Part shown: positions 29,181-45,046 of the stretch, piece by piece
Numbering within the stretch: position 1 is the stretch's first letter
Layout: every line of letters begins with the position of its first letter
Source: Candidatus Lindowbacteria bacterium RIFCSPLOWO2_12_FULL_62_27
GTDB taxonomy: Bacteria > Lindowbacteria > 2-12-FULL-62-27
Assembly: GCA_001784175.1 (NCBI GenBank)
Contig: MFPR01000004.1
Location: 434,001-498,000 of the forward strand
Reading direction: 5' to 3'
Length of the DNA: 64,000 nucleotides
Notes under the pieces: model-generated
The model's database searches: none
Told to the model about the DNA's origin: nothing
The model's input: the letters and a program-made list of their open reading frames with translations, nothing else
Position numbers and translations under genes: made by a program

Positions 29181-30104
29181 TTGATCACCGGCGGAGCCGG
29201 CTATCTGGGATCGATTCTCACGCGGCAACTCCTCGATCAGGGCTTCAAGGTCACCGTGCTCGATAATTTCATGTACCGGCAGGACAGCCTGCTGGAAGCA
29301 TGCGCCCATCCCGATTTCGCCGTCGTGCGCGGAGACTGCCGGGACGCGCCGCTCATGAGGTCCAGCCTGAAGGGCGTGGACGTGGTGATTCCCATGGCCG
29401 CGCTCGTGGGCGCGCCCGCGTGCGACCGGGACCGTTCCGCCGCGGTCCGCATCAACCGCGACGCGGTCCGGATGATCTGCAGGGAGATGTCCCCTGCGCA
29501 ATGGCTGCTTTTCCCCACCACCAACAGCGGCTACGGCGTGGGAGAGAACGGCAAGTTCTGCACGGAAGCGTCGCCCCTCCGTCCCATCAGCCTGTACGGG
29601 GTGACGAAGGCCGAGGCGGAGGCGGCGGTGATGGAACGCCGAAACTCGATCAGTTTCCGGCTGGCCACGGTCTTCGGAGTCTCGCCCCGGATGCGGATGG
29701 ACCTTCTGGTGAACGATTTTGTGTGGCGTGCACTGACCGACCGGTATCTGGTGCTGTTCGAAGGCCATTTCAAGAGGAATTACATCCATGTCCGGGACGT
29801 GGCCAAAGTGTTTCTGCACGGACTGAATCGCTTCTATTTCATGAGGGGGCAGGTGTACAACGTGGGCCTGGAGGACGCGAACCTCTCGAAGCGGGAACTC
29901 TGCGAACGGATCCGGGCTGTGATTTCCGATTTTGTCTTTTTCGAATCACCGATCGGGGAGGACGCGGACAAGCGCAATTACATCGTGTCGAACGCCAAAA
30001 TCCTCAAGACCGGGTTCCGGCCGGACTGGGATCTGGACCGGGGAATCCGGGAACTGGTCAAGGCCCATCTCATGCTGGGAAATGTCCGTCACGCCAACGC
30101 CTGA
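29181..30104 (+). CDS. NAD-dependent epimerase/dehydratase (start uncertain: TTG 29181 or ATA 29136)
   Basis: LITGGAGYLGS, AALVGAPAC, YGVTK, RLATVFG, RNYIHVRD. Confidence 0.85.
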   Translation: MITGGAGYLGSILTRQLLDQGFKVTVLDNFMYRQDSLLEACAHPDFAVVRGDCRDAPLMRSSLKGVDVVIPMAALVGAPACDRDRSAAVRINRDAVRMICREMSPAQWLLFPTTNSGYGVGENGKFCTEASPLRPISLYGVTKAEAEAAVMERRNSISFRLATVFGVSPRMRMDLLVNDFVWRALTDRYLVLFEGHFKRNYIHVRDVAKVFLHGLNRFYFMRGQVYNVGLEDANLSKRELCERIRAVISDFVFFESPIGEDADKRNYIVSNAKILKTGFRPDWDLDRGIRELVKAHLMLGNVRHANA

Positions 30105-32214
30105 AGGCGCAGCCCGACCCGGCGGCGGAACCGGCCGGCGAATCATTTACGTCGATGAGCTGAACGCCTTTTCCGCCGCCTGGCTGGCCCGGCATCGCGG
30201 GACGGTTTCCGGTATCTATTACATCGACGTATCCGGATGGATGAAACGGGTTCTCCCCGTGTTTCGCCGTGTGTTTCTGCGTGGCACGCCCATCCTCCCC
30301 CTTGACTTTTACATGGGCGACATCCGCACGGAACGTGGAGAGAACCTCTTCATCAAGATCTCTTTCGGGGATATCGGAAAATTCCACGGCCGGATGGTCC
30401 GCGACCATCTGGACCACGATCCGCTGTGCCGGATGTTCGCACGCCGGTTCGGCGCGGCCGAAATTTCGCTGTACGTGAAAATAAAAACCATGCGCGCGCT
30501 GCGAAGATACAATTCGTATCTCTACGCCGCCGCCTGGCATGCCCGGTCCCTGCCCGCCAATCCGCCCGCGGACCCCGGCTTCCTCCTCTCTCACTTCTAT
30601 TCCGACCTCCTCGCCGGCCACGCGATGTCGCTCGGCCTGCGGGTGACCGCCTACACAAATTTCTCCCGGCTGTTCTCGCGATGGATCCGGATTCTCAAGC
30701 GACTCCTCTGGCCCGTGCTGTCCCTGCGCGGCCTGACGCAAAAAAACGCCGGCCCGCGCCCGGCCGCGCCCATTCTGGCGGCGGGATTCAACGGCAAGTA
30801 CATCACGTTTGATCCGTCGGTTCGAAGCGATTTTTTCTGGCTCATTCCCTCGTCCCTGCCGAGGTCCAGGGTCATGATCTGCTTCCATCGGCATGACTAC
30901 CCCGTGACCGCCGAGATGGTGGACACGCTGAGGTCGGCCGGCATGAATTTCGTGGCCTTTTCAGAGTCCGCGCGGGTGGATCCCAGGGTACCTCTGTTTT
31001 CTCCCGGCCGGAGGGCCGCGTGGGATCTGGCCGTCTGGAATGCGCGGCTGGCCGTCCGGGTGTTGACGGCGATGTTCAGCGGCGCTGTTTCAAGTTTCTA
31101 TCTTGACTTGTTCGCGGATTTTGTCCGGCACTACGCGTGGTGGGGCGATTTTTTTCGCCGATACGGGGTGAGCGTCTACATCAACATCAACGATGCCTCC
31201 GACGATTCCGTACCCTTTCATCTGGCCCTCAAGGCCGCGGGCGGCGTCAGCGTCAGCTACCAGTTTTCCGCCCACAGCCTCAACCACAGCCCGGAAACCC
31301 TGATCCTGCCGATCTGCCGCGACGTCTTTTTTTCGTTCGGGCCCTATTACCGGCCTCTCCTAGACTCCGTGCATACAGCGATCGGCCACGGCGTCTATAC
31401 GGGTTACATCACCGACCAGGCCTTTGAGTTGGTGAAGGAAAGATCGCGGGGATACCGCGAGCGGCTTCAGCGGGCCGGGGCGAACTTCATTGTCGCATTT
31501 TTCGACGAAAACTCTTCCGATGACCGGATGAGAATGGTTTCCAACCGGAGAATGACCGGGGTTTACCGGCGCTTTCTCGACGCAGTCCTTTCCGACCCCA
31601 CGCTGGGACTCATCCTGAAACCCGGCTATCCGGGCACATTGTTCAAACGCCTGCCCGACATCCGGCCCCTCGTGGATCGCGCCCGTTCGACGGGCCGGTG
31701 CCTCCTTCTGGACGAGGGCGTGGTGGTGACGCGCGTGCTTCCGACGGAAGCCGCCCAGGCGGCGGACCTGGCCGTCGGGTTTCTGTACAGCGGAACAGCG
31801 GCGATGGAGTCCGTCCTCTCGGGCACGCCGACGGTTTATTTTGATTTTGAGAATCTCTTTGATCAGCCCGAGTACCAATGGCCGGCTCGGATCAGCCTCT
31901 CCGAGGCCCCAAGTGCCGGCGTCTCCGACGCCGGCCGGATCGTCTTCAACACGTGGGAGGAACTTTGGACGGCCATCCAGTCATTTCGGCGGGAGGCCCG
32001 GTCACGGCCGGATTTGAGGCGGACGATTCCTTTTCTTTCGCAGAAAGATCCCTTTCAGGACGGGCGGGCGGCGGAGCGCATGGGCGAGTATCTGTCGTCG
32101 CTCCTTATGTGCCTCGAACGGGAAGAGCCGGCGGCCGGGGCCGTGGCGTGGGCGAACCGGAAATTTTCGGAGAAATGGGGCGCGGACAAAATCGTTTCGC
32201 GTGCCGTCAGGTGA
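30082..32214 (+). CDS. Large surface-carbohydrate biosynthesis protein (GT-B-like); paralog of 12462..14570; carries an in-frame 48-bp element
   Basis: Colinear with 12462..14570 (YVDELN...RSDFFW...FFDENS...DPFQDGRAA). Confidence 0.6.
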   Translation: MSVTPTPEGAARPGGGTGRRIIYVDELNAFSAAWLARHRGTVSGIYYIDVSGWMKRVLPVFRRVFLRGTPILPLDFYMGDIRTERGENLFIKISFGDIGKFHGRMVRDHLDHDPLCRMFARRFGAAEISLYVKIKTMRALRRYNSYLYAAAWHARSLPANPPADPGFLLSHFYSDLLAGHAMSLGLRVTAYTNFSRLFSRWIRILKRLLWPVLSLRGLTQKNAGPRPAAPILAAGFNGKYITFDPSVRSDFFWLIPSSLPRSRVMICFHRHDYPVTAEMVDTLRSAGMNFVAFSESARVDPRVPLFSPGRRAAWDLAVWNARLAVRVLTAMFSGAVSSFYLDLFADFVRHYAWWGDFFRRYGVSVYININDASDDSVPFHLALKAAGGVSVSYQFSAHSLNHSPETLILPICRDVFFSFGPYYRPLLDSVHTAIGHGVYTGYITDQAFELVKERSRGYRERLQRAGANFIVAFFDENSSDDRMRMVSNRRMTGVYRRFLDAVLSDPTLGLILKPGYPGTLFKRLPDIRPLVDRARSTGRCLLLDEGVVVTRVLPTEAAQAADLAVGFLYSGTAAMESVLSGTPTVYFDFENLFDQPEYQWPARISLSEAPSAGVSDAGRIVFNTWEELWTAIQSFRREARSRPDLRRTIPFLSQKDPFQDGRAAERMGEYLSSLLMCLEREEPAAGAVAWANRKFSEKWGADKIVSRAVR
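31889..31936 (+). repeat. 48-bp double-hairpin mini-element, copy 1
   Basis: GGATCA GCCTC-TCC-GAGGC CCCAAGT GCCGGCGTC-TCC-GACGCCGGC C; absent from the paralog. Confidence 0.9.
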
Positions 32215-33286
32215 CGTTGGTTGGATTCGTGACGGCTCTGTAGACGGGCAGAAAGTCGTTGTGATAGACGCAGGTCGGCCGCGCGAGGTCATTCAACGAC
32301 AATTCGACAGCGCTCGGCGGGATGAAAGAAAATAAACGGTGCCCGGTCTTCAGCCGGCCCAGCATGCGCCGCAACTTCTCCCGGGCGCGGGCGCGGAATC
32401 CATTGAATCGTTGTGGCGCATACAGCCTGTCCCATTCGTGGGTTAAATGCCTTCGCACCACCCACCACAGATACTTTTTCGCGATCTCGTCCCCTTCACG
32501 GATCGACAGACCATCCTGGCGGGCCAGCTCTTCCGCCAGACAGCGCCGAACTCCATCGCTCTCCTCCCGCCAGCGGGGTGTGCTGTACCGTTCGAAGGGT
32601 TCCTGCGCGGCGAGAACAGAGTCCTGCCCGGGATGCGCCTGACACAGCTTGTAGAGTTTGTCCAGACGCTTGACCTTGCCGCGGATGACGGGAATACACG
32701 TGGTCAGGAGCTCGCCGAACCAGTTTCCAAGCCCGAATTCGATCGTCCGGGCGTATCCGTCCCGGATGTCTTCCGTCCGGTGGATCGAGTTTCCTGTAGC
32801 AAACCAATGGCTCATGAAACGGCCGAACCGGCCGGCGCCGGTGTCGTCTTCGATGTCAGCATACTCATAATGAACCATCCACTGGAACCGCCCATGGGCA
32901 CGGCCGGAATCGAGCCCGAACATGAGACAGAGGCCGTGCGCGACCCGGTACGCCGGATGCCGGTCCAGAAAATCCATGCAGAGATCCATCGTTTCAGGCA
33001 CGTAAAAATCGTCGTCGGCGGCGTACATGCAATAGGGGGTCCGGACATGCTCCAGTCCCCTGGCGATGCAATCGTTGAACGAGGCCCCCGGTTGGGCGAG
33101 ATGGGTCACGTTCAGCCGTTCGCGATACCTCCGGATCACGGAACCGATCGCGTCAAACGGTTCCGGATCGCTGGCATCCGAAATGACGATCGGATGCGAA
33201 AACGCCGCGGATGCATAATAGGTCAGGAACCGCGACAGGAACTGCGCGCGATTCCGCGTTGAAACCACAAGGGTCAACCGTTCCAT
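32207..33286 (-). CDS. GT-A glycosyltransferase (TIGR00180-like), copy A
   Basis: STRNRAQFLSRFLTYY, ISDAS, TPYCMYAADDDF, FGELL. Confidence 0.8.
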   Translation of the reverse strand: MERLTLVVSTRNRAQFLSRFLTYYASAAFSHPIVISDASDPEPFDAIGSVIRRYRERLNVTHLAQPGASFNDCIARGLEHVRTPYCMYAADDDFYVPETMDLCMDFLDRHPAYRVAHGLCLMFGLDSGRAHGRFQWMVHYEYADIEDDTGAGRFGRFMSHWFATGNSIHRTEDIRDGYARTIEFGLGNWFGELLTTCIPVIRGKVKRLDKLYKLCQAHPGQDSVLAAQEPFERYSTPRWREESDGVRRCLAEELARQDGLSIREGDEIAKKYLWWVVRRHLTHEWDRLYAPQRFNGFRARAREKLRRMLGRLKTGHRLFSFIPPSAVELSLNDLARPTCVYHNDFLPVYRAVTNPTNVT

Positions 33287-33295
33287 CGAAAGCCG

Positions 33296-33348
33296 ACTTA
33301 ACCTTCCGAACAAAAGGCTTGTCAAGTTTCATTCGCTTGTGCTTTCAT
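33296..33348. promoter_or_regulatory. Back-to-back promoters sharing the near-palindrome CTTGTCAAG as -35: TTGACA-N18-TTAAGT (-) and TTGTCA-N18-TTTCAT (+)
   Basis: 68-bp divergent gap; the + promoter is followed after 6 nt by ATG 33355. Confidence 0.45.
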
Positions 33349-33354
33349 GGATCC

Positions 33355-34134
33355 ATGCCAGTCGAATCGACGCATCCCTTCATTCTGACGGCGCACCAAC
33401 CCGTGTATCTGCCGTGGCTGGGGCTCATGCACAAAATCGCGCTGTCGGACATGTTCTGCCTGTTTGATGACGTGCAGTACTTGAAAAAGGACTGGATGAA
33501 TCGAAACAGGATCAAGACGGCCAACGGCCCGGTCTGGCTGACCGTGCCGGTTCTGAGCAGGGACCATTACCATTTGAAATGCAGGGACGTGAGGATCCAT
33601 GCCGCCCTGCCGTGGCGGAGGAAACACTGGCGTTCGATTCTGAACGCGTACCGGAGCGCTCCCTTCTTCAGGAGATACGCCGATTTTTTTGAAGACCTCT
33701 ATTCAAAGGAATGGACGCATCTCGCGGATTTGAATCAACATATCCTCCGGTATCTGCTCGACGCCTTTTCGATCAAAGTGGCTTGGGTTCGGGCGTCCGA
33801 CTGTTCTTTTGACGGAAAGGGGTCTGATCTCGTGCTGGACATGTGCCGCCGCCTGAATGCGGACATCTATGTGTTCGGCGCCTTGGGCCGAACCTACGCG
33901 CGGGTGGAGGATTTTGAAAAGGCCGGAATATCCGTTTATTTCCAGGACTATCGGCACCCCTCCTATCCGCAGCTCGGGGGGCAATTCTCGCCGTCCATGA
34001 GCGCGATCGATCTTCTCTTTAATCACGGCCCGGCCTCCTTCGAGATTTTGATGGAAGGCAATCACAGCCGGGAACACCTCGTCCGCGCCGCCGGGGTTCT
34101 GCCCCTGACGGAAGCCGGGGCGGGACGCCCATGA
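33355..34134 (+). CDS. WbqC family protein
   Basis: HQPVYLPWLG, NRNRIKT, WLTVPV, HPSYPQ, SAIDLLFNHG. Confidence 0.9.
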   Translation: MPVESTHPFILTAHQPVYLPWLGLMHKIALSDMFCLFDDVQYLKKDWMNRNRIKTANGPVWLTVPVLSRDHYHLKCRDVRIHAALPWRRKHWRSILNAYRSAPFFRRYADFFEDLYSKEWTHLADLNQHILRYLLDAFSIKVAWVRASDCSFDGKGSDLVLDMCRRLNADIYVFGALGRTYARVEDFEKAGISVYFQDYRHPSYPQLGGQFSPSMSAIDLLFNHGPASFEILMEGNHSREHLVRAAGVLPLTEAGAGRP

Positions 34135-35018
34135 GAATCCTGGTCACCGGCGCCGGAGGCTATTTGGGAAGCGCCTGCGTGGGCCATCTTGCCGGGCGCC
34201 ATGAAGTGACGGCGGGCGGGCACAGTTCACCGGAACGGCCGGACGCCGTCATTCACATGGCGTTTCGATTTCCTAAAGACAACTCCGCGCGGGCCGAACT
34301 TGAAAACCAAACCGCGTTGCGCGCCATGATTGATTTCTGCATGGCCCGGAATGTTTCGCGATTCATTTTTCCGTCCACGTATGCGGTGTATCCCTGCAGC
34401 GAGCGGACCGCGGTGGAATCGGACGCCCTGTTTCCAGAATCCGAATACGCCCGCGGAAAGGGGACGGCGGAAAGGATGCTGCAGGAGTCCGGCCTTCCCC
34501 ATGTGATCCTTCGTCTGACGCACGTCTATGGCCGGGGCACCGGCGTCGGCGACGAGGGCGGCGTCATCCTGCAGTGGCTGGATCGGGCCATGCATGGAAA
34601 GGACATCGAAGTGATCGACGGAGAAACCATCGAGCGGGACTATATCCACCTTCGTGACGTCCTGGCGGCCGTCGAGGCGTGCCTTGAAAGAGAGCCGGCC
34701 ATGGGACGCGTCTACAACATCGGAAGCGGCGCCGGCGTGACGCTTCTGGATCTCGCGCGACAGATCGCGCGGATCGCCGGCGGGGAAACCGGCCGGGACG
34801 TTTCGGTGCGGAATCGCCGGAGCGCAACCCCCGTGATCTGGCGGCGGCGCGTGGACCTCCGGCGGGCGGAGGAGGAATTGGGCTTTTATCCGCGGGTCAA
34901 CCTCGTGGAAGGCTTGAAAGAGATGGCGGCGGCGCGCACGACGGGACTGCCGGATCAGCGCCTCCGGCGCCCCAAGTGCCGGCGTCTCCGACGCCGGCCG
35001 GAGGCGGCCGCAAGATGA
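34131..35018 (+). CDS. NAD-dependent epimerase/dehydratase; C-terminus contains the 48-bp element
   Basis: ILVTGAGGYLG, STYAVY, YARGK, RDYIHLRD, YNIGSG. Confidence 0.85.
   Translation: MRILVTGAGGYLGSACVGHLAGRHEVTAGGHSSPERPDAVIHMAFRFPKDNSARAELENQTALRAMIDFCMARNVSRFIFPSTYAVYPCSERTAVESDALFPESEYARGKGTAERMLQESGLPHVILRLTHVYGRGTGVGDEGGVILQWLDRAMHGKDIEVIDGETIERDYIHLRDVLAAVEACLEREPAMGRVYNIGSGAGVTLLDLARQIARIAGGETGRDVSVRNRRSATPVIWRRRVDLRRAEEELGFYPRVNLVEGLKEMAAARTTGLPDQRLRRPKCRRLRRRPEAAAR
34952..34999 (+). repeat. 48-bp double-hairpin mini-element, copy 2
   Basis: GGATCA GCGCC-TCC-GGCGC CCCAAGT GCCGGCGTC-TCC-GACGCCGGC C; differs from copy 1 only by two compensatory base pairs. Confidence 0.9.
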
Positions 35019-40813: not shown

Positions 40814-42363
40814 TGAGAGGCGCGTCGAAACTGGACTTGCTGATCGTCTCGCCCGGCGACCACAAGATCATTTACCAGGACCTGGCGGCGGAATACGCCG
40901 CGCTCGAACCGCCCATTTGGGCGGGGCTCATTGCAAACTTTGCGAGACACAAAGGCTGCAGCGTCGATATCATCGACCAGCAGGCCGAGGGCCTGACGCC
41001 GGGGGATATCGTCCGGAGGGCCTTGGACGACCGGCCGAGGCTCGTGGCCATCCTCGTCTATGGCCAGCAGCCGTCCGCGTCCACTCAAAACATGACCATG
41101 GCCGGCGAGATCGCGGCGCAATTCAGTGAACACGCGCCGGAATTCAAAACGATCCTGATCGGCGGCCACGTCTCCGCCATCCCGGAACCCACGATGCGGG
41201 AGACGGCCTGCGATTTCGTATGCGAGGGGGAAGGCCCCTGCACCGTGGATGCGCTCCTTCAGCTTGAGAACATGAACGATCCCTCGGACTACTCCAAAGT
41301 CCCGGGTCTTTGGTACCGGCGCGATGGACACATCCTGAACACAAACCCCGCGCCGGTCGTGCCGGAAAAAGAACTGCCGGCCACCCTGCCCGGCATCGCA
41401 TGGGACCTTCTGCCGATGCATGCCTACCGGGCGCACAACTGGCACTGTTTCTCGCACATCCACGACCGCAGCCCCTATGCATCGATGTATACGAGCCTCG
41501 GCTGCCCGTTCAGATGCACCTTTTGCTGCATCAACGCACCCTTCGGATCGGCCGGACTGCGATGCTGGGATCCAAAATTCGTCATCACGGAACTCGACCT
41601 CCTGGCCAACCGCTACCGCGTCAAGAACATCAAAATCGCCGACGAGATGTTCGTCTTGAATGAACGCCACGTGCTGGATCTGTGCGACCTCATCATCGAA
41701 CGGGGCTATGAGTTTAACTTCTGGGCATACGCGCGCGTCGATACAGTCAAGGACAGGTTTCTGGAGAAACTCAAGAAAGCCGGATTCAACTGGCTCTGCC
41801 TCGGGATCGAATCGAGGAGCAACCATGTTCGCGCAGGGGTCGTCAAGGGACAGTACAGCGAAGAGGACATCTACGATACGGTGCAGCGCATCAAGAACGC
41901 CGGCATCCATGCCTTCGGCAACTACATCTTTGGCCTGCCGGACGACACCTGCGAATCGATGCAGGAAACGCTGGATCTGGCGGTCGACCTCAACTGTGAG
42001 ATGGCCAATTTTTATTGCGCCGCCGCCTACCCGGGATCCAAACTCTACGAGATGGCGAAGGCGAAGGGTTGGCGCCTCCCCGAGAAATGGCATGACTTCT
42101 CACAGCATTCCTACGGCCAGTTGCCGCTGCCGACAGAGACGCTTCCCGCAGGAGAAGTTTTGGCGTTTCGGGACAAGGCCTGGCAAATCTATTTCACCAA
42201 TCCCCGGTATCTCAATCTGATTCTGGAAAAATTCGGCCGGGAGGCGGTGGATCACATCGCCAAGCTGACCACGTATACGCTGCGTCGAAAGCATGCGGCG
42301 CCCCTGCGCGTTGAACCGTGTCTGCGAAAGGACGCGACGGAAGTGAAGGGCGTCAGCGTCTGA
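40810..42363 (+). CDS. B12-binding domain radical SAM protein
   Basis: EPPIW, GGHVSA, GEG, SLGCPFRCTFC, ADEMF, YARVD, LGIES, AYPGS. Confidence 0.9.
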   Translation: MMRGASKLDLLIVSPGDHKIIYQDLAAEYAALEPPIWAGLIANFARHKGCSVDIIDQQAEGLTPGDIVRRALDDRPRLVAILVYGQQPSASTQNMTMAGEIAAQFSEHAPEFKTILIGGHVSAIPEPTMRETACDFVCEGEGPCTVDALLQLENMNDPSDYSKVPGLWYRRDGHILNTNPAPVVPEKELPATLPGIAWDLLPMHAYRAHNWHCFSHIHDRSPYASMYTSLGCPFRCTFCCINAPFGSAGLRCWDPKFVITELDLLANRYRVKNIKIADEMFVLNERHVLDLCDLIIERGYEFNFWAYARVDTVKDRFLEKLKKAGFNWLCLGIESRSNHVRAGVVKGQYSEEDIYDTVQRIKNAGIHAFGNYIFGLPDDTCESMQETLDLAVDLNCEMANFYCAAAYPGSKLYEMAKAKGWRLPEKWHDFSQHSYGQLPLPTETLPAGEVLAFRDKAWQIYFTNPRYLNLILEKFGREAVDHIAKLTTYTLRRKHAAPLRVEPCLRKDATEVKGVSV

Positions 42364-42865
42364 AGGCGGGTTTCAGTCGATAATACAGGAGGGCGAAAGG
42401 TAGCGCCAGCGCGGCCAGACACGCCGCGGACAGGGCGCCGGCCATTGCCCGGATTCTGTCCAACACGAATCCTTTCCATGTCACTTGCCTGAAATGTTTC
42501 ACCGGCGCGTGGGAGACGATCCTTGAAACGCCGGCCGCCGTTAAAAAACGGATGATCCCCCCATATCCGCGGCCGTCCACATGGTTGTACGGCACATAGG
42601 CTTCATCGATCCGCTCCCGCCGGAGCCTCTCCAGACACAGCCGGTTCAATCCTCCGTAGGTCATCCACGGCCGGTCATACAGCAGAAAATCAGCTTCCAC
42701 ACCTTCCGATGCCTTGCGGATCTCCTTTTCCGCGGATGGCTGGACAATCCAGATCCACCGGACGCCAGCGTCTCCGACGCCGGCCGGATACCGCACCTCT
42801 TTGAGATACCGAAACAGAGCCAGACACTGCGACAGCGGGGCGGACCGGATCAGCAGGATGTTCAT
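42353..42865 (-). CDS. Small protein resembling the N-terminal half of GT9 heptosyltransferases, with a hydrophobic C-terminal tail
   Basis: MNILLIRSAP...YLK..RYP...WIVQ...LRRERIDEAYVPY; hydrophobic C-terminus; ATGA coupling. Confidence 0.55.
   Translation of the reverse strand: MNILLIRSAPLSQCLALFRYLKEVRYPAGVGDAGVRWIWIVQPSAEKEIRKASEGVEADFLLYDRPWMTYGGLNRLCLERLRRERIDEAYVPYNHVDGRGYGGIIRFLTAAGVSRIVSHAPVKHFRQVTWKGFVLDRIRAMAGALSAACLAALALPFALLYYRLKPAFRR
42760..42788 (+). repeat. Half copy of the 48-bp element (second hairpin plus CGGA end)
   Basis: GCCAGCGTC-TCC-GACGCCGGC-CGGA inside the 42353..42865 ORF (reads PAGVGDAG). Confidence 0.7.
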
Positions 42866-43953
42866 GGGACGGTTGCTTCGACAGGACGGGTCACGGCTTC
42901 ACAGACGGGCGCGAAGTCGTCGTGATAAACGGAGGTCGGCCGAGCGAGGTCGTTCAACGACAATTCGACGGCGTCCGTCGGGATGAAAGATAACATGCGG
43001 TGGGCGGATTTCAGCCGTCCCAGCATGCGCCGCAACGTCTCCCGGGAGGAGGCGCGAAATCCGTTAAACCGGTGCGGCGCATAGAATCTGTCCCACTCCC
43101 GGCTCAAATACTTTCCCAGCATCCACCAAAGGTATTTTTTCGCAGTCTCTTCCCCTTCCCGGACCGACATACCGTCCTGGCGGGCCAGTTCCTCCGCGAG
43201 GCAACGCTGGACTCCCTCGCACTCGCCCCGCCAGGGGGCTGCGCAGAACCATTCGAAGAGTCCGGGTTCCTGCGAGCCGCGGGCTGAGACCTGGCCGGGA
43301 TGGGCCTGACACAGTTTGTAGAGTTTCTCCAGACGCTTGACCTTGCCGCGGATGACGGGAATGCATGTGGTCAGGATCTCGGCGAACTCATATCCAAGCT
43401 TGCGTTCAATCACGCGGGTGTATCCGTCCCGGACGTCTTCCGTCCGGTGGATCGAGTTTCCGGTCGCAAACCAATGGCTCATGAAGCGGCCTAACCGGCC
43501 GGCGCCGGTGTCGTCTTCGATGTCGGCGTACTCATAATGCGTCATCCACTGGAACCGGCCATGGGTCTGGCCGGAATCAAGCCCGAACATGAGGCAGAGG
43601 CCATGCGCGACCCGGTACGCCGGATGCCGGTCCAGAAAATCCATGCAGAGATCCATCGTTTCAGGCACGTAAAAGTCGTCGTCGGACGCCAGCATGCAGT
43701 AGGGCGTCCGGGCCTGCGCCAGGCCCTGCGCCAGGCAAATGTTGGCGGAGGCCCGCGGATGGGCGAGATGGGTCACGTTCAATTGATCGCGATATCGCCG
43801 GATCATGGAAACGATGGCCTCAAAAGGTTCGGGGTCGCTCGCGTCTGAAATAATGATGGGATGTGAAAAGGCGCGGCCCGCGTAATACGCAAGAAACCGG
43901 GACAGGAACTGTACGCGGTTCCGCGTGGTCACCACCATGGTCAACCTGGGCAT
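42862..43953 (-). CDS. GT-A glycosyltransferase (TIGR00180-like), copy B
   Basis: Highly similar to 32207..33286; ATG 43953 after GGAGG. Confidence 0.8.
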   Translation of the reverse strand: MPRLTMVVTTRNRVQFLSRFLAYYAGRAFSHPIIISDASDPEPFEAIVSMIRRYRDQLNVTHLAHPRASANICLAQGLAQARTPYCMLASDDDFYVPETMDLCMDFLDRHPAYRVAHGLCLMFGLDSGQTHGRFQWMTHYEYADIEDDTGAGRLGRFMSHWFATGNSIHRTEDVRDGYTRVIERKLGYEFAEILTTCIPVIRGKVKRLEKLYKLCQAHPGQVSARGSQEPGLFEWFCAAPWRGECEGVQRCLAEELARQDGMSVREGEETAKKYLWWMLGKYLSREWDRFYAPHRFNGFRASSRETLRRMLGRLKSAHRMLSFIPTDAVELSLNDLARPTSVYHDDFAPVCEAVTRPVEATVP

Positions 43954-43967
43954 GTCCGACAGCCTCC

Positions 43968-44063
43968 GGATCAGCCTCTCCGAGGCCTCAAGTGCCGGCG
44001 TCTCGGACCAGCGCCTCCGGCGCCTCAAGTGTCGGAGTCTCCGACTCCGACCCGACGCCGGCT
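43968..44063 (+). repeat. Two nested 48-bp elements (outer copy split by inner copy at 44005..44052)
   Basis: 96 bp = 2 x 48; removing 44005..44052 restores the outer GCCGGCGTC-TCC-GACGCCGGC hairpin. Confidence 0.9.
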
Positions 44064-45046
44064 GGACAGGCTGCCGTAAGGCTCATCACGTCCGATAGAA
44101 ATTCTTGGGAAAGCCGGATGTCGTTTTGATTGCTGGCGTACCGAAAGCCGCTCTTGACCCGCCGGCCGTTCTTGCTGATGTCACCCAAGGGCGGGAACGC
44201 CGGATAAATCACATAGTGGTCGTCAAACTCGCGCGTGTGCTCGCTTTCGTCCTCCGTGATCAATACCTCATGGATCTTTTCTCCCGGTCGCTTGCCGATA
44301 AATTCGAGCTCGCAGTCCGGCGCGATCAGGCGCGCAATATCCACCACCCGCGTGCTCGCGATTTTCGGAACGAGGATTTCACCGCCATGCATCCGTTCGA
44401 GACAGGTGAGCACGAATTCCACGGCGTTGTCGAGCGACATCCAGAAGCGCGTCATGCGGGGGTCGGTCACAATCAGTTTTCCGCTTTCCCGCTGCTCGAG
44501 AAACAGGGGCACCACGCTTCCGCGGCTCGCCAGAACATTTCCGTATCGCACCACGCTGAACCGCGTCCCCTTCTCCCCGGAATAGACATTGGCCGCGACA
44601 AACAATTTCTCCGCGCAGAGTTTCGTGGCCCCATAGAGATTGACGGGGTGAACCGCCTTGTCCGTGCTCAGGGCGATCACCTTCCGAACGCCCTGGTCGA
44701 TGGCCGCGTTCAGGACGTTCTCCGCACCGATGACGTTGGTCTTGACGGCTTCGATGGGATTGTACTCCAGGGTCGGCACCTGTTTGAGCGCCGCCGCGTG
44801 AATGACGATGTCCACGCCCTGAAAGGCCCGGTCCAAGCGGCTCTTGTCGCGCACATCCCCGATGAAAAATCGGATGGCCGGGTTCCCCACGAACTCCCGC
44901 TGCATCTCCACCTGCTTGAGTTCGTCCCGGCTGAAGATGATCAATTTTTCAGGCAACATTCGGTCGAGGACGAATCTCGCGAAATGTCTCCCGAACGACC
45001 CCGTTCCCCCCGTGACGAGCACCACTCGTCCGTTCAGATCAATCAT
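43988..45046 (-). CDS. pseB: UDP-N-acetylglucosamine 4,6-dehydratase (inverting)
   Basis: VTGGTGSFG, FSRDELKQ, HAAALKQVP, LSTDKA, YGATK, RYGNV, RPGEKIHE; stop codon lies inside the repeat. Confidence 0.9.
   Translation of the reverse strand: MIDLNGRVVLVTGGTGSFGRHFARFVLDRMLPEKLIIFSRDELKQVEMQREFVGNPAIRFFIGDVRDKSRLDRAFQGVDIVIHAAALKQVPTLEYNPIEAVKTNVIGAENVLNAAIDQGVRKVIALSTDKAVHPVNLYGATKLCAEKLFVAANVYSGEKGTRFSVVRYGNVLASRGSVVPLFLEQRESGKLIVTDPRMTRFWMSLDNAVEFVLTCLERMHGGEILVPKIASTRVVDIARLIAPDCELEFIGKRPGEKIHEVLITEDESEHTREFDDHYVIYPAFPPLGDISKNGRRVKSGFRYASNQNDIRLSQEFLSDVMSLTAACPAGVGSESETPTLEAPEALVRDAGT

What the first reader, a model, noticed from the sequence alone, without database searches (positions are those of the whole stretch)
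43968..44063. One element copy sits precisely in the loop of another, and the outer copy supplies the pseB stop codon
Seen: outer ...GCCGGCGTCTC [GGACCAGCGCCTCCGGCGCCTCAAGTGTCGGAGTCTCCGACTCCGACC] CGACGCCGGCT. Excising the bracketed 48 bp restores a complete 48-bp copy. The inner copy is a different sequence variant, which argues for an independent insertion rather than tandem slippage. It also shows that the leading GGA belongs to the element, so no multi-base target duplication is needed. PseB reads through the inner copy and part of the outer one (PAGVGSESETPTLEAPEALVRDAGT) and stops at a TGA (43988-43990) created by the CCCAAG>CTCAAG variant. The element ends right next to the GGAGG Shine-Dalgarno of the next gene.
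Basis: seen in the sequence. Interest (0 to 1): 0.78.

Follow-up and report, generated by a model that had tools for sequence, protein, structure and literature searches.

The report
Nested mini-repeats forming pseB's tail
A 48-base, two-hairpin repeat of an uncultivated groundwater bacterium sits exactly inside the hairpin loop of another copy at the end of a sugar-synthesis gene, so that repeat DNA now encodes the protein's last 25 residues and its stop codon; the repeat belongs to an undescribed family that mostly lives in frame inside ordinary genes.

Summary
Window 43968-44063 (+) is one 48-nt repeat. It is split in the TCC loop of its long hairpin by a second complete 48-nt copy (44005-44052). 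Splicing the inner copy out leaves a unit 46/48 identical to the copy at 31889. The two copies differ at 10/48 positions, 8 of them paired stem changes.

PseB (43988-45046, minus) reads through both copies and stops at a TGA in the outer copy's linker. That TGA exists only because of a C>T variant. 13 of 13 aligned homologues end about 25 residues earlier.

The family is new to the libraries searched. It is absent from Rfam, plasmids and phages. Among 185,579 species genomes it occurs in only two MAGs; a near-identical cluster mate of PseB is named Candidatus Lindowbacteria.

Its unit is GGAYCAG, a 5-bp hairpin, CYCAAGT, a 9-bp hairpin and C, which makes 16 codons. Seven of 14 stem pairs covary. 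Most copies lie in frame inside real genes, in either orientation. Flanks resemble the element's own head-to-tail junction (CCGGCC^GGA). A second MAG shows insertion at the same loop position.

Best reading: a REP/RPE-like miniature mobile element that targets single-stranded sites. The enzyme is unknown. It is a new member of a known kind and moderately interesting.

The parts
43968..44004 (+). Outer copy, left part: GGATCAG, short hairpin (GCCTC/TCC/GAGGC), linker CTCAAGT, first arm of the long hairpin, and TC of the loop.
   Evidence: (39.4 bits).
44005..44052 (+). Inner copy, a complete 48-nt unit of a different stem variant (GCGCC/GGCGC and GTCGGAGTC/GACTCCGAC). It begins GGACCAG and has the linker CTCAAGT.
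   Evidence: (70.6 bits, E 6e-17).
44053..44063 (+). Outer copy, right part: last C of the loop, second arm GACGCCGGC, and a terminal T (C in other copies).
43988..45046 (-). pseB ORF (UDP-N-acetylglucosamine 4,6-dehydratase, inverting), 352 aa. Residues 328-352 are encoded by repeat DNA.
   Evidence: Polysacc_synt_2, 7.9e-101; residues 327-352 have pLDDT below 50.
43988..43990 (-). TGA stop of pseB, inside the outer copy's linker. The minus strand reads ACTTGAGG here; other copies read ACTTGGGG.
43963..43967 (-). GGAGG Shine-Dalgarno-like motif directly abutting the element, 11 nt upstream of the ATG at 43951-43949.
   Evidence: read directly from the sequence.
42862..43951 (-). Downstream gene, weakly GT2-like. 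A paralogue lies at 32207-33325.
   Evidence: (80-87% nt identity).
43960..43965 (+). Left arm (CAGCCT) of a 6-bp inverted repeat that brackets the insertion site of the outer copy. The right arm is at 44068-44073.
   Evidence: read directly. Without the repeats the site is CAGCCT-CC^GGAC-AGGCTG.
44068..44073 (+). Right arm (AGGCTG) of the flanking inverted repeat.
31889..31936 (+). Intact copy inside a + strand ORF (29932-32214). It encodes a 16-aa insert absent from homologues.
   Evidence: 79.6 bits; gap in 11 of 11 homologues.
34952..34999 (+). Intact copy in the 3' end of an epimerase/dehydratase ORF (34131-35018). GGAGG and the next gene's ATG (35015) follow it directly.
   Evidence: (79.7 bits).
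42742..42785 (+). Degenerate copy. The long hairpin is nearly intact (1 mismatch) and the left half has decayed. It lies inside the minus-strand ORF 42353-42865.
   Evidence: 20.8 bits, E about 1e-3.

Best explanation
The locus holds two members of a family of 48-nt (16-codon) miniature mobile repeats found in Lindowbacteria-like genomes.

The unit is GGAYCAG, a 5-bp hairpin with a TCC loop, CYCAAGT, a 9-bp hairpin with a TCC loop, then C.

Proposed history of the locus:
1. One copy inserted at a CC^GGA site between the end of pseB and the ribosome-binding site of the next gene.
2. A second copy of another stem variant later inserted into the exposed TCC loop of the first copy's long hairpin.
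3. Each unit is a whole number of codons and is open in five of six frames, so both are read as protein.
4. pseB lost its own stop. It now terminates at a TGA made by a C>T change in the outer copy's linker. That adds a 25-residue tail, predicted to be disordered.

Shown: the anatomy, the family, the stem covariation, the in-frame intragenic habit, the flank consensus and the recurrent loop insertion.

Inferred: movement goes through single-stranded DNA by cut-and-join at sites resembling the element's own head-to-tail junction. This is the style of IS200/IS605- or RAYT-type HUH enzymes supplied in trans. Hairpin loops would be hit because they are single-stranded.
For: Family and structure:
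- The window holds 4 copies plus 1 degenerate copy, all in + orientation.
- A scan of 185,579 species genomes returned 35 loci. 32 come from two MAGs and 3 are chance hits.
- In 21 distinct copies, 98% of cells pair and 7 of 14 pairs change on both sides. 0 of 500 shuffles reach this.

Mobility-type evidence:
- A 16-aa insert is absent from 11 of 11 homologues of the 760-aa ORF.
- MAFFT places a 16-aa gap against the closest epimerase homologue.
- A solved CheR shows a 12+3-residue gap at the element-coded segment.
- 19 of 27 element-spanning ORFs in the MAG loci carry Pfam domains. These include AcrB, AccA, CarB, NuoG, CheR, YceG and ApbE.
- Of those 19, 11 have the element in the gene's orientation and 8 in the opposite one.

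Target:
- Among 18 isolated copies, position -1 is C in 18 of 18. Positions -6 to -1 read CCGGCC in 10 to 18 of 18, by position.
- Positions +1 and +2 are G in 14 and 13 of 17.
- This equals the tandem junction seen in L004, L017, L013, L029 and L034.

Loop insertion recurs:
- It is seen in the window and in L030 at the same TC^C point. It is probably also present in L001/L003 across a contig break.

Independence of the inner copy: it differs from the outer at 10/48 positions.

Tail is new.

Folding: the composite folds as nested hairpins, with a DNA z-score of -5.4.
Against: - No empty-site allele of this locus was seen, so movement here is inferred, not observed.
- The window encodes no transposase or HUH enzyme, and the rest of the genome could not be searched.
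- The hairpins are perfect and the right end lies 1 nt from the stem foot. This is unlike the IS608 ends as I recall them.
- The loop sites (GTCTC^CGAC) fit the CCGGCC^GGA consensus poorly.
- Both copies at pseB share the T in CYCAAGT. That T occurs in 0 of 36 family matches in the MAGs. This hints at gene conversion rather than full independence.
- Removing both copies does not restore a stop.
- Cluster mates P0122 and P0125 have different tails after the first junction. The cause could be strain variation or trouble assembling the repeats.
- The copies used for covariation were preselected for pairing.
Confidence: 0.68

Rival explanations
1. Local origin. The inner copy arose from the neighbouring copy by slippage, hairpin-primed template switching or gene conversion, not by a separate insertion.
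For: Both copies share the rare T of CTCAAGT. It is found in 2 of 4 window copies, both at this locus, and in 0 of 36 family matches in the MAGs. Head-to-tail tandems of the family are common.
Against: The copies differ at 10/48 positions, including four compensated stem pairs. The inner stem variant occurs in another genome, again nested at the same loop position (L030). A nested order, rather than a tandem one, would need two precise deletions.
Confidence: 0.08
2. Assembly artefact. The nesting is a mis-join of short repeats in a metagenome assembly.
For: The repeats break MAG contigs: L001, L003, L009, L014 and L018 lie at contig ends, three of which share one 55-nt end. Cluster mates of PseB have other tails: P0122 has 386 aa and P0125 has 340 aa.
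Against: The exact 352-aa protein is recorded on 9 contigs from several sources, and fragment P0123 has the same tail. P0122 shares the first junction through ...EAPEAL. An equivalent nesting occurs in an unrelated locus of another MAG (L030). The 96 nt is shorter than a typical read pair.
Confidence: 0.07
3. Host-selected functional motif. The unit would be kept as an RNA or DNA signal rather than as selfish mobile DNA. Possible roles are mRNA stabiliser, terminator, protein-binding site with GGA loops, or translational-coupling device next to the Shine-Dalgarno motif.
For: Two of three window insertions abut GGAGG of the next gene. In the RNA fold, the segment just 5' of the start can pair with the GGAGG region. 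Stems covary.
Against: Copies occur in both orientations relative to transcription, 11 same and 8 opposite. They sit inside coding regions of unrelated housekeeping genes. The RNA z-score is only -1.9. Rfam has no match. The CC^GGA target preference alone explains the adjacency to GGAGG.
Confidence: 0.1
4. Classical MITE. The unit would be a deletion derivative of a double-strand DNA transposon that cuts a palindromic CCGGCCGG target with a 4-bp stagger and duplicates GGCC.
For: The commonest flanks, ccGGCC...GGCCgg, can be read as a 4-bp duplication around a 44-nt core.
Against: The element has no terminal inverted repeats: GGATCAGC matches the reverse complement of the other end, GGCCGGCG, at only 4 of 8 positions. 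The putative duplication fails in about half of the young, near-identical copies. Failures include both clean nested copies, L010, L012, L016, L019, L025 and window copies 31889, 34952 and 43968.
Confidence: 0.07

Closest known systems
Rickettsia palindromic elements (RPE)
   Same: Both are hairpin-forming repeats inserted in frame into unrelated functional genes. Both add short peptides and have no known dedicated enzyme. Source: passages of PMC10969869 and PMC3733652.
   Different: RPEs are about 100-150 bp and belong to obligate intracellular alphaproteobacteria. Some end in CGTC. Here the unit is 48 nt with two different hairpins and fixed TCC loops. It occurs in a free-living candidate phylum, and three reading frames are in common use.
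REP / REPIN elements mobilised by RAYT (IS200-like Y1/HUH) enzymes, including the GTAG- and CGTC-tagged families
   Same: Both are short structured repeats with stem subfamilies. Both form clusters by insertion into or next to existing copies (PMC3116915). Some tagged families lie within ORFs or inside small palindromes (PMC3733652).
   Different: This element has no terminal GTAG or CGTC tag and is not extragenic. It forms head-to-tail tandems rather than inverted doublets. No RAYT was seen, though only 64 kb plus 400-nt flanks could be examined.
IS200/IS605 'peel and paste' single-strand transposition and its miniature derivatives
   Same: Both have two subterminal hairpins, no terminal inverted repeats and no duplication. 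Both have a fixed base or short motif on the left flank. All 5 window copies share one orientation. This is what the element works like, by inference. Background: abstract of PMC6006769 and passages of PMC3116915.
   Different: No transposase has been found. The hairpins are perfect. The right cleavage point would lie 1 nt from the stem. The element is far smaller than described derivatives. Details of the IS608 ends are recalled, not checked.
Small dispersed repeats (SDR) of Nostoc punctiforme (Elhai et al. 2008)
   Same: As I recall the paper, these are very small (21-27 nt) mobile repeats with a shared predicted secondary structure, found inserted within one another.
   Different: They occur in a different phylum and differ in size and sequence. 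The paper is not held; I saw it only as a citation, so this comparison is unverified.
IS1397/ISKpn1 insertion into loops of enterobacterial palindromic units
   Same: Both involve a mobile element choosing the loop of a repeated hairpin as its target. This is recalled, not checked.
   Different: Those are full insertion sequences with their own transposase. Here a 48-nt repeat inserts into its own kind.

Membership tests
REP/REPIN (RAYT-associated) | Conserved GTAG (or CGTC) tetranucleotide at one end of a 20-40 nt imperfect palindrome. | tested here: not met
   The unit begins GGAYCAG and ends GCCGGCC. CGTC occurs only inside the long stem. Definition taken from passages of PMC3733652.
REP/REPIN (RAYT-associated) | Predominantly extragenic location. 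| tested here: not met
   19 of 27 element-spanning ORFs carry Pfam domains. All 3 intact window copies and the interrupted outer copy lie within ORFs.
REP/REPIN (RAYT-associated) | Inverted doublets (REPIN). | tested here: not met
   Neighbouring copies are head-to-tail on one strand in L004, L013, L017, L029 and L034. No inverted pairs appear among the 47 model hits.
REP/REPIN (RAYT-associated) | A RAYT gene flanked by the repeats somewhere in the genome. | not testable with these tools
   Only the 64-kb window (no Y1 transposase) and 400-nt flanks were available.
Rickettsia palindromic elements | Palindromic repeat inserted in frame in functional ORFs. | tested here: met
Rickettsia palindromic elements | Sequence relatedness to the RPE families, size about 100-150 bp, Rickettsiales host. 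| tested here: not met
   The unit is 48 nt. Among the species genomes scanned, the exact left-half pattern occurs as a family only in two MAGs titled merely bacterium, and a PseB cluster mate is named Lindowbacteria. No direct alignment to RPE sequences was made.
MITE (double-strand transposon derivative) | Terminal inverted repeats. | tested here: not met
   The 5' end GGATCAGC matches the reverse complement of the 3' end, GGCCGGCG, at 4 of 8 positions. Read directly from the sequence.
MITE (double-strand transposon derivative) | Target-site duplication at every copy. | tested here: not met
   Nested copies have none. The GGCC reading fails in about half of the isolated copies.
IS200/IS605-type single-strand elements (miniature derivative) | Subterminal hairpins, no TIR, no TSD, and insertion 3' of a short specific sequence. 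| tested here: inconclusive
   Two hairpins with covariation. Position -1 is C in 18 of 18 copies and CCGGCC is the majority left flank. The loop targets fit that consensus poorly.
IS200/IS605-type single-strand elements (miniature derivative) | A cognate Y1 (HUH) transposase whose gene ends match the element. | not testable with these tools
   The genome outside the window cannot be reached.
Rfam RNA families | A match at the family's gathering score. | tested here: not met
   0 matches in the window. The only match in the E-value search of 43900-44130 is a chance one at E 0.25.

The most novel reading that the evidence does not exclude
The family may be an actively moving, self-targeting single-strand element sized as exactly 16 codons. 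Its 5' GGA, or its CC-GGA circle junction, would find targets by pairing with exposed TCC hairpin loops and with self-complementary CCGGCCGG sites. It would therefore colonise coding DNA and its own copies preferentially. In an uncultivated phylum it would act as a general generator of protein loops, tails, new stop codons and operon-junction structures. An enzyme class not yet linked to such tiny elements would mobilise it.
Probability: 0.12. Interest if true: 0.7.

Novelty: new member of a known kind. Interest (0 to 1): 0.45.

Why it matters
In-frame repeat insertion into working genes is best known from Rickettsia. This finding shows the same habit in a free-living candidate phylum, with a much smaller and sharply defined unit.

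The nested copy is useful evidence about how these repeats insert. It fixes the unit's boundaries to within one base. It shows that no target duplication is needed. It also identifies the 3-nt loop of a folded hairpin as a recurrent target, which points to a single-stranded DNA step.

For annotation, such repeats create false C-terminal extensions, shift stop codons and break metagenome assemblies.

For protein evolution, the locus is a concrete case of selfish DNA supplying a gene's tail and its terminator.

Tried and rejected
Searches that found nothing:
- Rfam at gathering thresholds on the whole window gave nothing. An E-value search of 43900-44130 gave only a chance lncRNA hit.
- blastn of a copy against plasmids and phages gave no match.
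- No transposase or HUH domain was found among 22 + 36 window ORFs scanned with Pfam.
- A search for 'Lindowbacteria' returned 19 papers, of which 15 were listed. None of the listed titles or abstract starts concerns repeats.

Calls that failed:
- A fuzzy-regex census script timed out. The DNA search and a covariance model replaced it.
- The Elhai 2008 paper is not held.
- One paper search failed on term syntax and was not repeated.
- A Pfam scan of the flanks of the L003/L004 cluster, meant to look for a nearby enzyme, failed because a frame I gave contained stops. I dropped it.

Ideas considered and set aside:
- Strand orientation against replication. GC skew of the + strand is weakly negative in 6 of 8 blocks. 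This is too weak, and too confounded by gene orientation, to say which strand the copies favour.
- A GGCC target duplication, rejected.
- Integron attC-like or recombination-site readings, set aside because no cassette-like genes lie between copies.
- L005 and L022 as two loci. They are the same locus on a contig that is its own reverse complement (coordinates).

Full report
**What is at the site.** On the + strand, 43968-44063 reads as GGATCAG, a 5-bp hairpin with a TCC loop, CTCAAGT, then the first arm of a 9-bp hairpin. After the TC of that hairpin's loop comes a complete second unit (44005-44052). After that come the last loop C, the second arm and a T. In a script, the two outer pieces joined to 48 nt. 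This differs from the copy at 31889-31936 at 2 of 48 positions and from the inner copy at 10 of 48. Shifting the cut by one base to the left is equally good, so the insertion point is T^CC or TC^C. The unit is 48 nt including its final C.

**More than chance.**
- The left-half pattern has 4 matches in the window where 0.01 are expected.
- The long-hairpin pattern gives 5 matches where 0.01 are expected. They fall at three sites, because the two intact palindromic copies match on both strands.
- A covariance model built from 25 copies finds three intact copies (79.7, 79.6 and 70.6 bits). It also finds the left part of the interrupted one (39.4 bits) and a degenerate copy at 42742-42785 (20.8 bits, E about 1e-3). 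All are in + orientation.
- Other model hits in the window have E above 0.04 and look like chance.

**The gene.**
- ORF 43988-45046 (minus strand) is PseB. It matches Polysacc_synt_2 at 7.9e-101, and its relatives are named UDP-N-acetylglucosamine 4,6-dehydratase (inverting).
- It is 352 aa long. The 120 listed relatives are mostly 321-343 aa.
- In an alignment with 13 of them, chosen as the closest plus a few named ones, all 13 end at or within a few residues of the window's ...SLTAA. The two closest (79% and 77% identity) end exactly there.
- The extra CPAGVG...DAGT is encoded by the repeats.
- An AlphaFold model with this 14-row alignment has pLDDT below 50 for residues 327-352 and places the last helix at 314-325. 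The tail has no alignment depth, so low confidence there is partly expected.
- The stop at 43988-43990 lies in the outer copy's linker, which reads ACTTGAGG on the minus strand; other copies read ACTTGGGG.
- With the canonical base the frame runs to 408 aa. Without the inner copy it gives 336 aa. Without both copies it gives 376 aa.
- So the gene now depends on the variant base for termination, and simple excision does not recover an ancestral stop.
- The closest relatives stop where the window has TGT. A lost TGA at that codon is therefore a reasonable inference, but it is untested.

**The neighbours.**
- GGAGG (43963-43967 on the minus strand) touches the element. The ATG at 43951 follows it.
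- The paralogue at 32207-33325 starts MERLTLVV against MPRLTMVV here, which supports that start.
- Without the repeats, the site reads CAGCCT-CC^GGAC-AGGCTG. The first insertion therefore also fell in the loop of a small palindrome (read directly).
- In the RNA fold, the segment just upstream of the start can pair with the GGAGG region. I treat this only as a lead.

**The family.**
- One scan of 185,579 species-representative genomes, using the degenerate left half, gave 35 loci. 32 come from two MAGs (CAZHRJ01 and JACQOF01) and 3 are single chance hits in alphaproteobacteria.
- The window's own genome is not among them.
- A cluster mate of PseB with an identical body is named Candidatus Lindowbacteria.
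- The scan needed an exact 27-nt pattern, so these counts are lower bounds.
- From 33 full-length copies I kept 25 rows, after dropping 8 exact duplicates. Of these, 21 are distinct.
- 98% of cells pair and 7 of 14 pairs change on both sides. 0 of 500 shuffles and none of the slid controls come near this.
- The rows had been preselected for at least 4 of 5 and at least 7 of 9 pairs. This inflates the percentage paired but not the double changes.
- Single-stranded parts are nearly invariant.
- Stem variants recombine freely between the two hairpins.

**Where copies sit.**
- *760-aa ORF.* The copy at 31889 adds ARISLSEAPSAGVSDAG to a conserved 760-aa protein, at a point where 11 of 11 aligned homologues have a gap.
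- *Epimerase.* The copy at 34952 adds 16 residues near the C-terminus of an epimerase, just before the next gene's GGAGG and ATG. MAFFT places a 16-residue gap against the closest homologue.
- *MAG loci.* I examined 31 loci and 30 had a stop-free frame of at least 100 codons across the element. I sent 27 of these to Pfam, dropping L001 for a coordinate slip and L004 and L034 for N runs. 19 carry domains of ordinary proteins, including a protein kinase, UvrD, CobQ, ApbE, glutamate dehydrogenase, Rrf2, AccA, an ABC ATPase, NuoG, AcrB, Crp, CarB, LpxB, a short-chain dehydrogenase, CheR and YceG. In several the domain match runs on both sides of the element.
- *Solved structures.* Against a solved CheR, the element-coded segment falls in a 12+3-residue gap. 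For AccA, the E. coli chain aligns over 185 query residues against 171 of its own.
- *Orientation.* Among the 19, the element lies in the gene's orientation in 11 and opposite in 8.
- *Reading frames.* I examined 17 intact intragenic copies: 14 from the MAGs and 3 from the window, leaving out five partial or complex copies. Three frames account for 15 of them. These give Gly/Ser/Ala/Pro-rich peptides. The Arg-rich frame occurs once, as a C-terminal tail. That pattern fits purifying selection on what proteins tolerate.

**Targets.**
- I tabulated 18 isolated full-length copies, excluding tandem, nested and truncated ones. The base before the element is C in all 18. Positions -6 to -1 read CCGGCC in 10 to 18 of 18, depending on position. 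Positions +1 and +2 are G in 14 and 13 of 17.
- That consensus is the element's own tail followed by its own head, the same as the junction in head-to-tail arrays (L004, L013, L017, L029, L034).
- It is a preference, not a duplication. About half of these near-identical copies do not fit a GGCC duplication, and nested copies have none.
- The two window insertions next to GGAGG fit a CC^GGA target.

**Loop insertions.**
- The window and L030 share the same point (GTCTC^...^CGAC) and the same inner stem variant.
- L001 and L003 show GTCTCC^...^GAC across a contig break. L009 shares the same 55-nt contig end, so that join is only probable.
- L008 and L009 are unclear.
- Loops make up a tiny share of a genome, so even two or three such events are far above a random expectation. 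This is an inference; I made no census.

**Mechanism.**
- Shown: the unit, its structure under selection, its spread into unrelated genes in frame, its flank consensus, and repeated insertion into its own loop.
- Inferred: a single-stranded DNA step. The supporting features are two subterminal hairpins, no terminal inverted repeats, no duplication, a fixed left-flank base, tandem growth and a taste for exposed loops. These are what IS200/IS605- and RAYT-type HUH enzymes would produce. Background comes from passages of PMC3116915 and the abstract of PMC6006769 in a listing.
- Against this reading: no enzyme was found in the window, and the rest of the genome was out of reach. The stems are perfect. 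The loop sites fit the linear consensus poorly.
- A possible pairing of the 5' GGA with TCC loops, and the self-complementarity of CCGGCCGG, are my own speculations.

**Open points.**
- Both copies at pseB carry the T of CTCAAGT, whereas 0 of 36 family matches in the MAGs do.
- In the inner copy the T is read as CTT GAG and makes no stop, so selection for termination cannot explain it. Short-patch conversion between the two copies is the simplest idea.
- P0122 has the same inner-copy peptide (TLEAPEAL) and then a different continuation. P0125 diverges after PAGVG.
- These differences may reflect strain variation or assembly trouble at repeats, which also break the MAG contigs.

**Comparison with known systems.**
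- In-frame palindromic inserts are the hallmark of Rickettsia RPEs. They are also reported for some GTAG/CGTC REP families, including copies at ORF ends and copies sitting inside small palindromes (passages of PMC10969869 and PMC3733652).
- Clusters formed by insertion into or next to existing copies are described for REPINs (PMC3116915).
- This family fails the REP tests (terminal tag, extragenic habit, inverted doublets) and the MITE tests (terminal inverted repeats, duplication).
- It shares the RPE habit but not RPE size or host.
- It is absent from Rfam, plasmids and phages.
- I saw no paper on repeats among the 15 listed of the 19 that mention Lindowbacteria.
- I file it as a new member of a known kind.

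**Verdict.** Interest is moderate: the nested copy is a neat natural experiment on target choice, and the family's 16-codon, mostly intragenic habit deserves a full-genome study.

Noticed in passing
window 1-64000: The whole 64-kb window is one glycan / nonulosonic-acid biosynthesis region. It holds PseB, NeuB, DegT aminotransferases, two WbqC, two PIG-L deacetylases and three B12-radical-SAM proteins. It also holds many GT2 glycosyltransferases, methyl- and sulfotransferases and cytidylyltransferases. No mobile-element gene is present.
   Followed up: partly
window 32207-33325 and 42862-43951: Two paralogous, weakly GT2-like genes are 80-87% identical at the DNA level over at least 670 nt. 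An element copy lies within about 300 nt of one end of each.
   Followed up: partly
window 42742-42785: A degenerate copy lies inside a 170-aa ORF of no known family (P0128, seen on 12 contigs). Its long hairpin is nearly intact and is read as PAGVGDAG, while its left half has decayed. I did not test whether homologues lack these residues.
   Followed up: no
window 43960-43965 / 44068-44073: A 6-bp inverted repeat (CAGCCT/AGGCTG) brackets the outer copy's insertion site, so the first insertion also fell in a hairpin loop. The left flank CAGCCTCC resembles the element's own CAGCCTCTCC.
   Followed up: partly
window 43988 and 44025: Both copies at pseB share the T of CTCAAGT, which is absent from all 36 family matches in the two MAGs. 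Only the outer T makes a stop. This is unexplained; gene conversion is a possibility.
   Followed up: partly
L005 and L022 (contig CAZHRJ010000014.1): The two loci are identical and mirror each other about the contig's midpoint (5124 + 28851 = contig length + 1). The contig is therefore a fold-back palindrome, probably an assembly artefact. The gene is a YceG/MltG homologue carrying the left half of an element in frame.
   Followed up: partly
L001, L003, L009, L014, L018; L004, L034: Elements sit at contig ends. Three of these ends share the same 55 nt, which looks like an unresolved assembly-graph node. Tandem arrays contain runs of N. The repeat fragments these MAG assemblies.
   Followed up: no
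L008, L014; L001 401-459: Structural subvariants exist. In one, an extra small hairpin (GCGGGC-TGC-GCCCGC) replaces the outer part of the long hairpin's first arm. In another, a 19-nt segment lies between GCCGG and CCGGC.
   Followed up: no
L033, L020, L029 329-379, L028 429-452: Truncated copies lie inside real genes (CarB, CheR, CobQ). One has a 6-nt loss of the loop plus part of arm 2, and others have breaks within arm 1. These may be deletions after insertion that weaken the hairpin.
   Followed up: no
proteins P0122, P0125 (cluster of PseB): Other assemblies of the same gene give tails of different length (386 and 340 aa) after a shared beginning. The continuation in P0122 looks like the locus's opposite-strand flank, which may indicate a fold-back contig end.
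   Followed up: no
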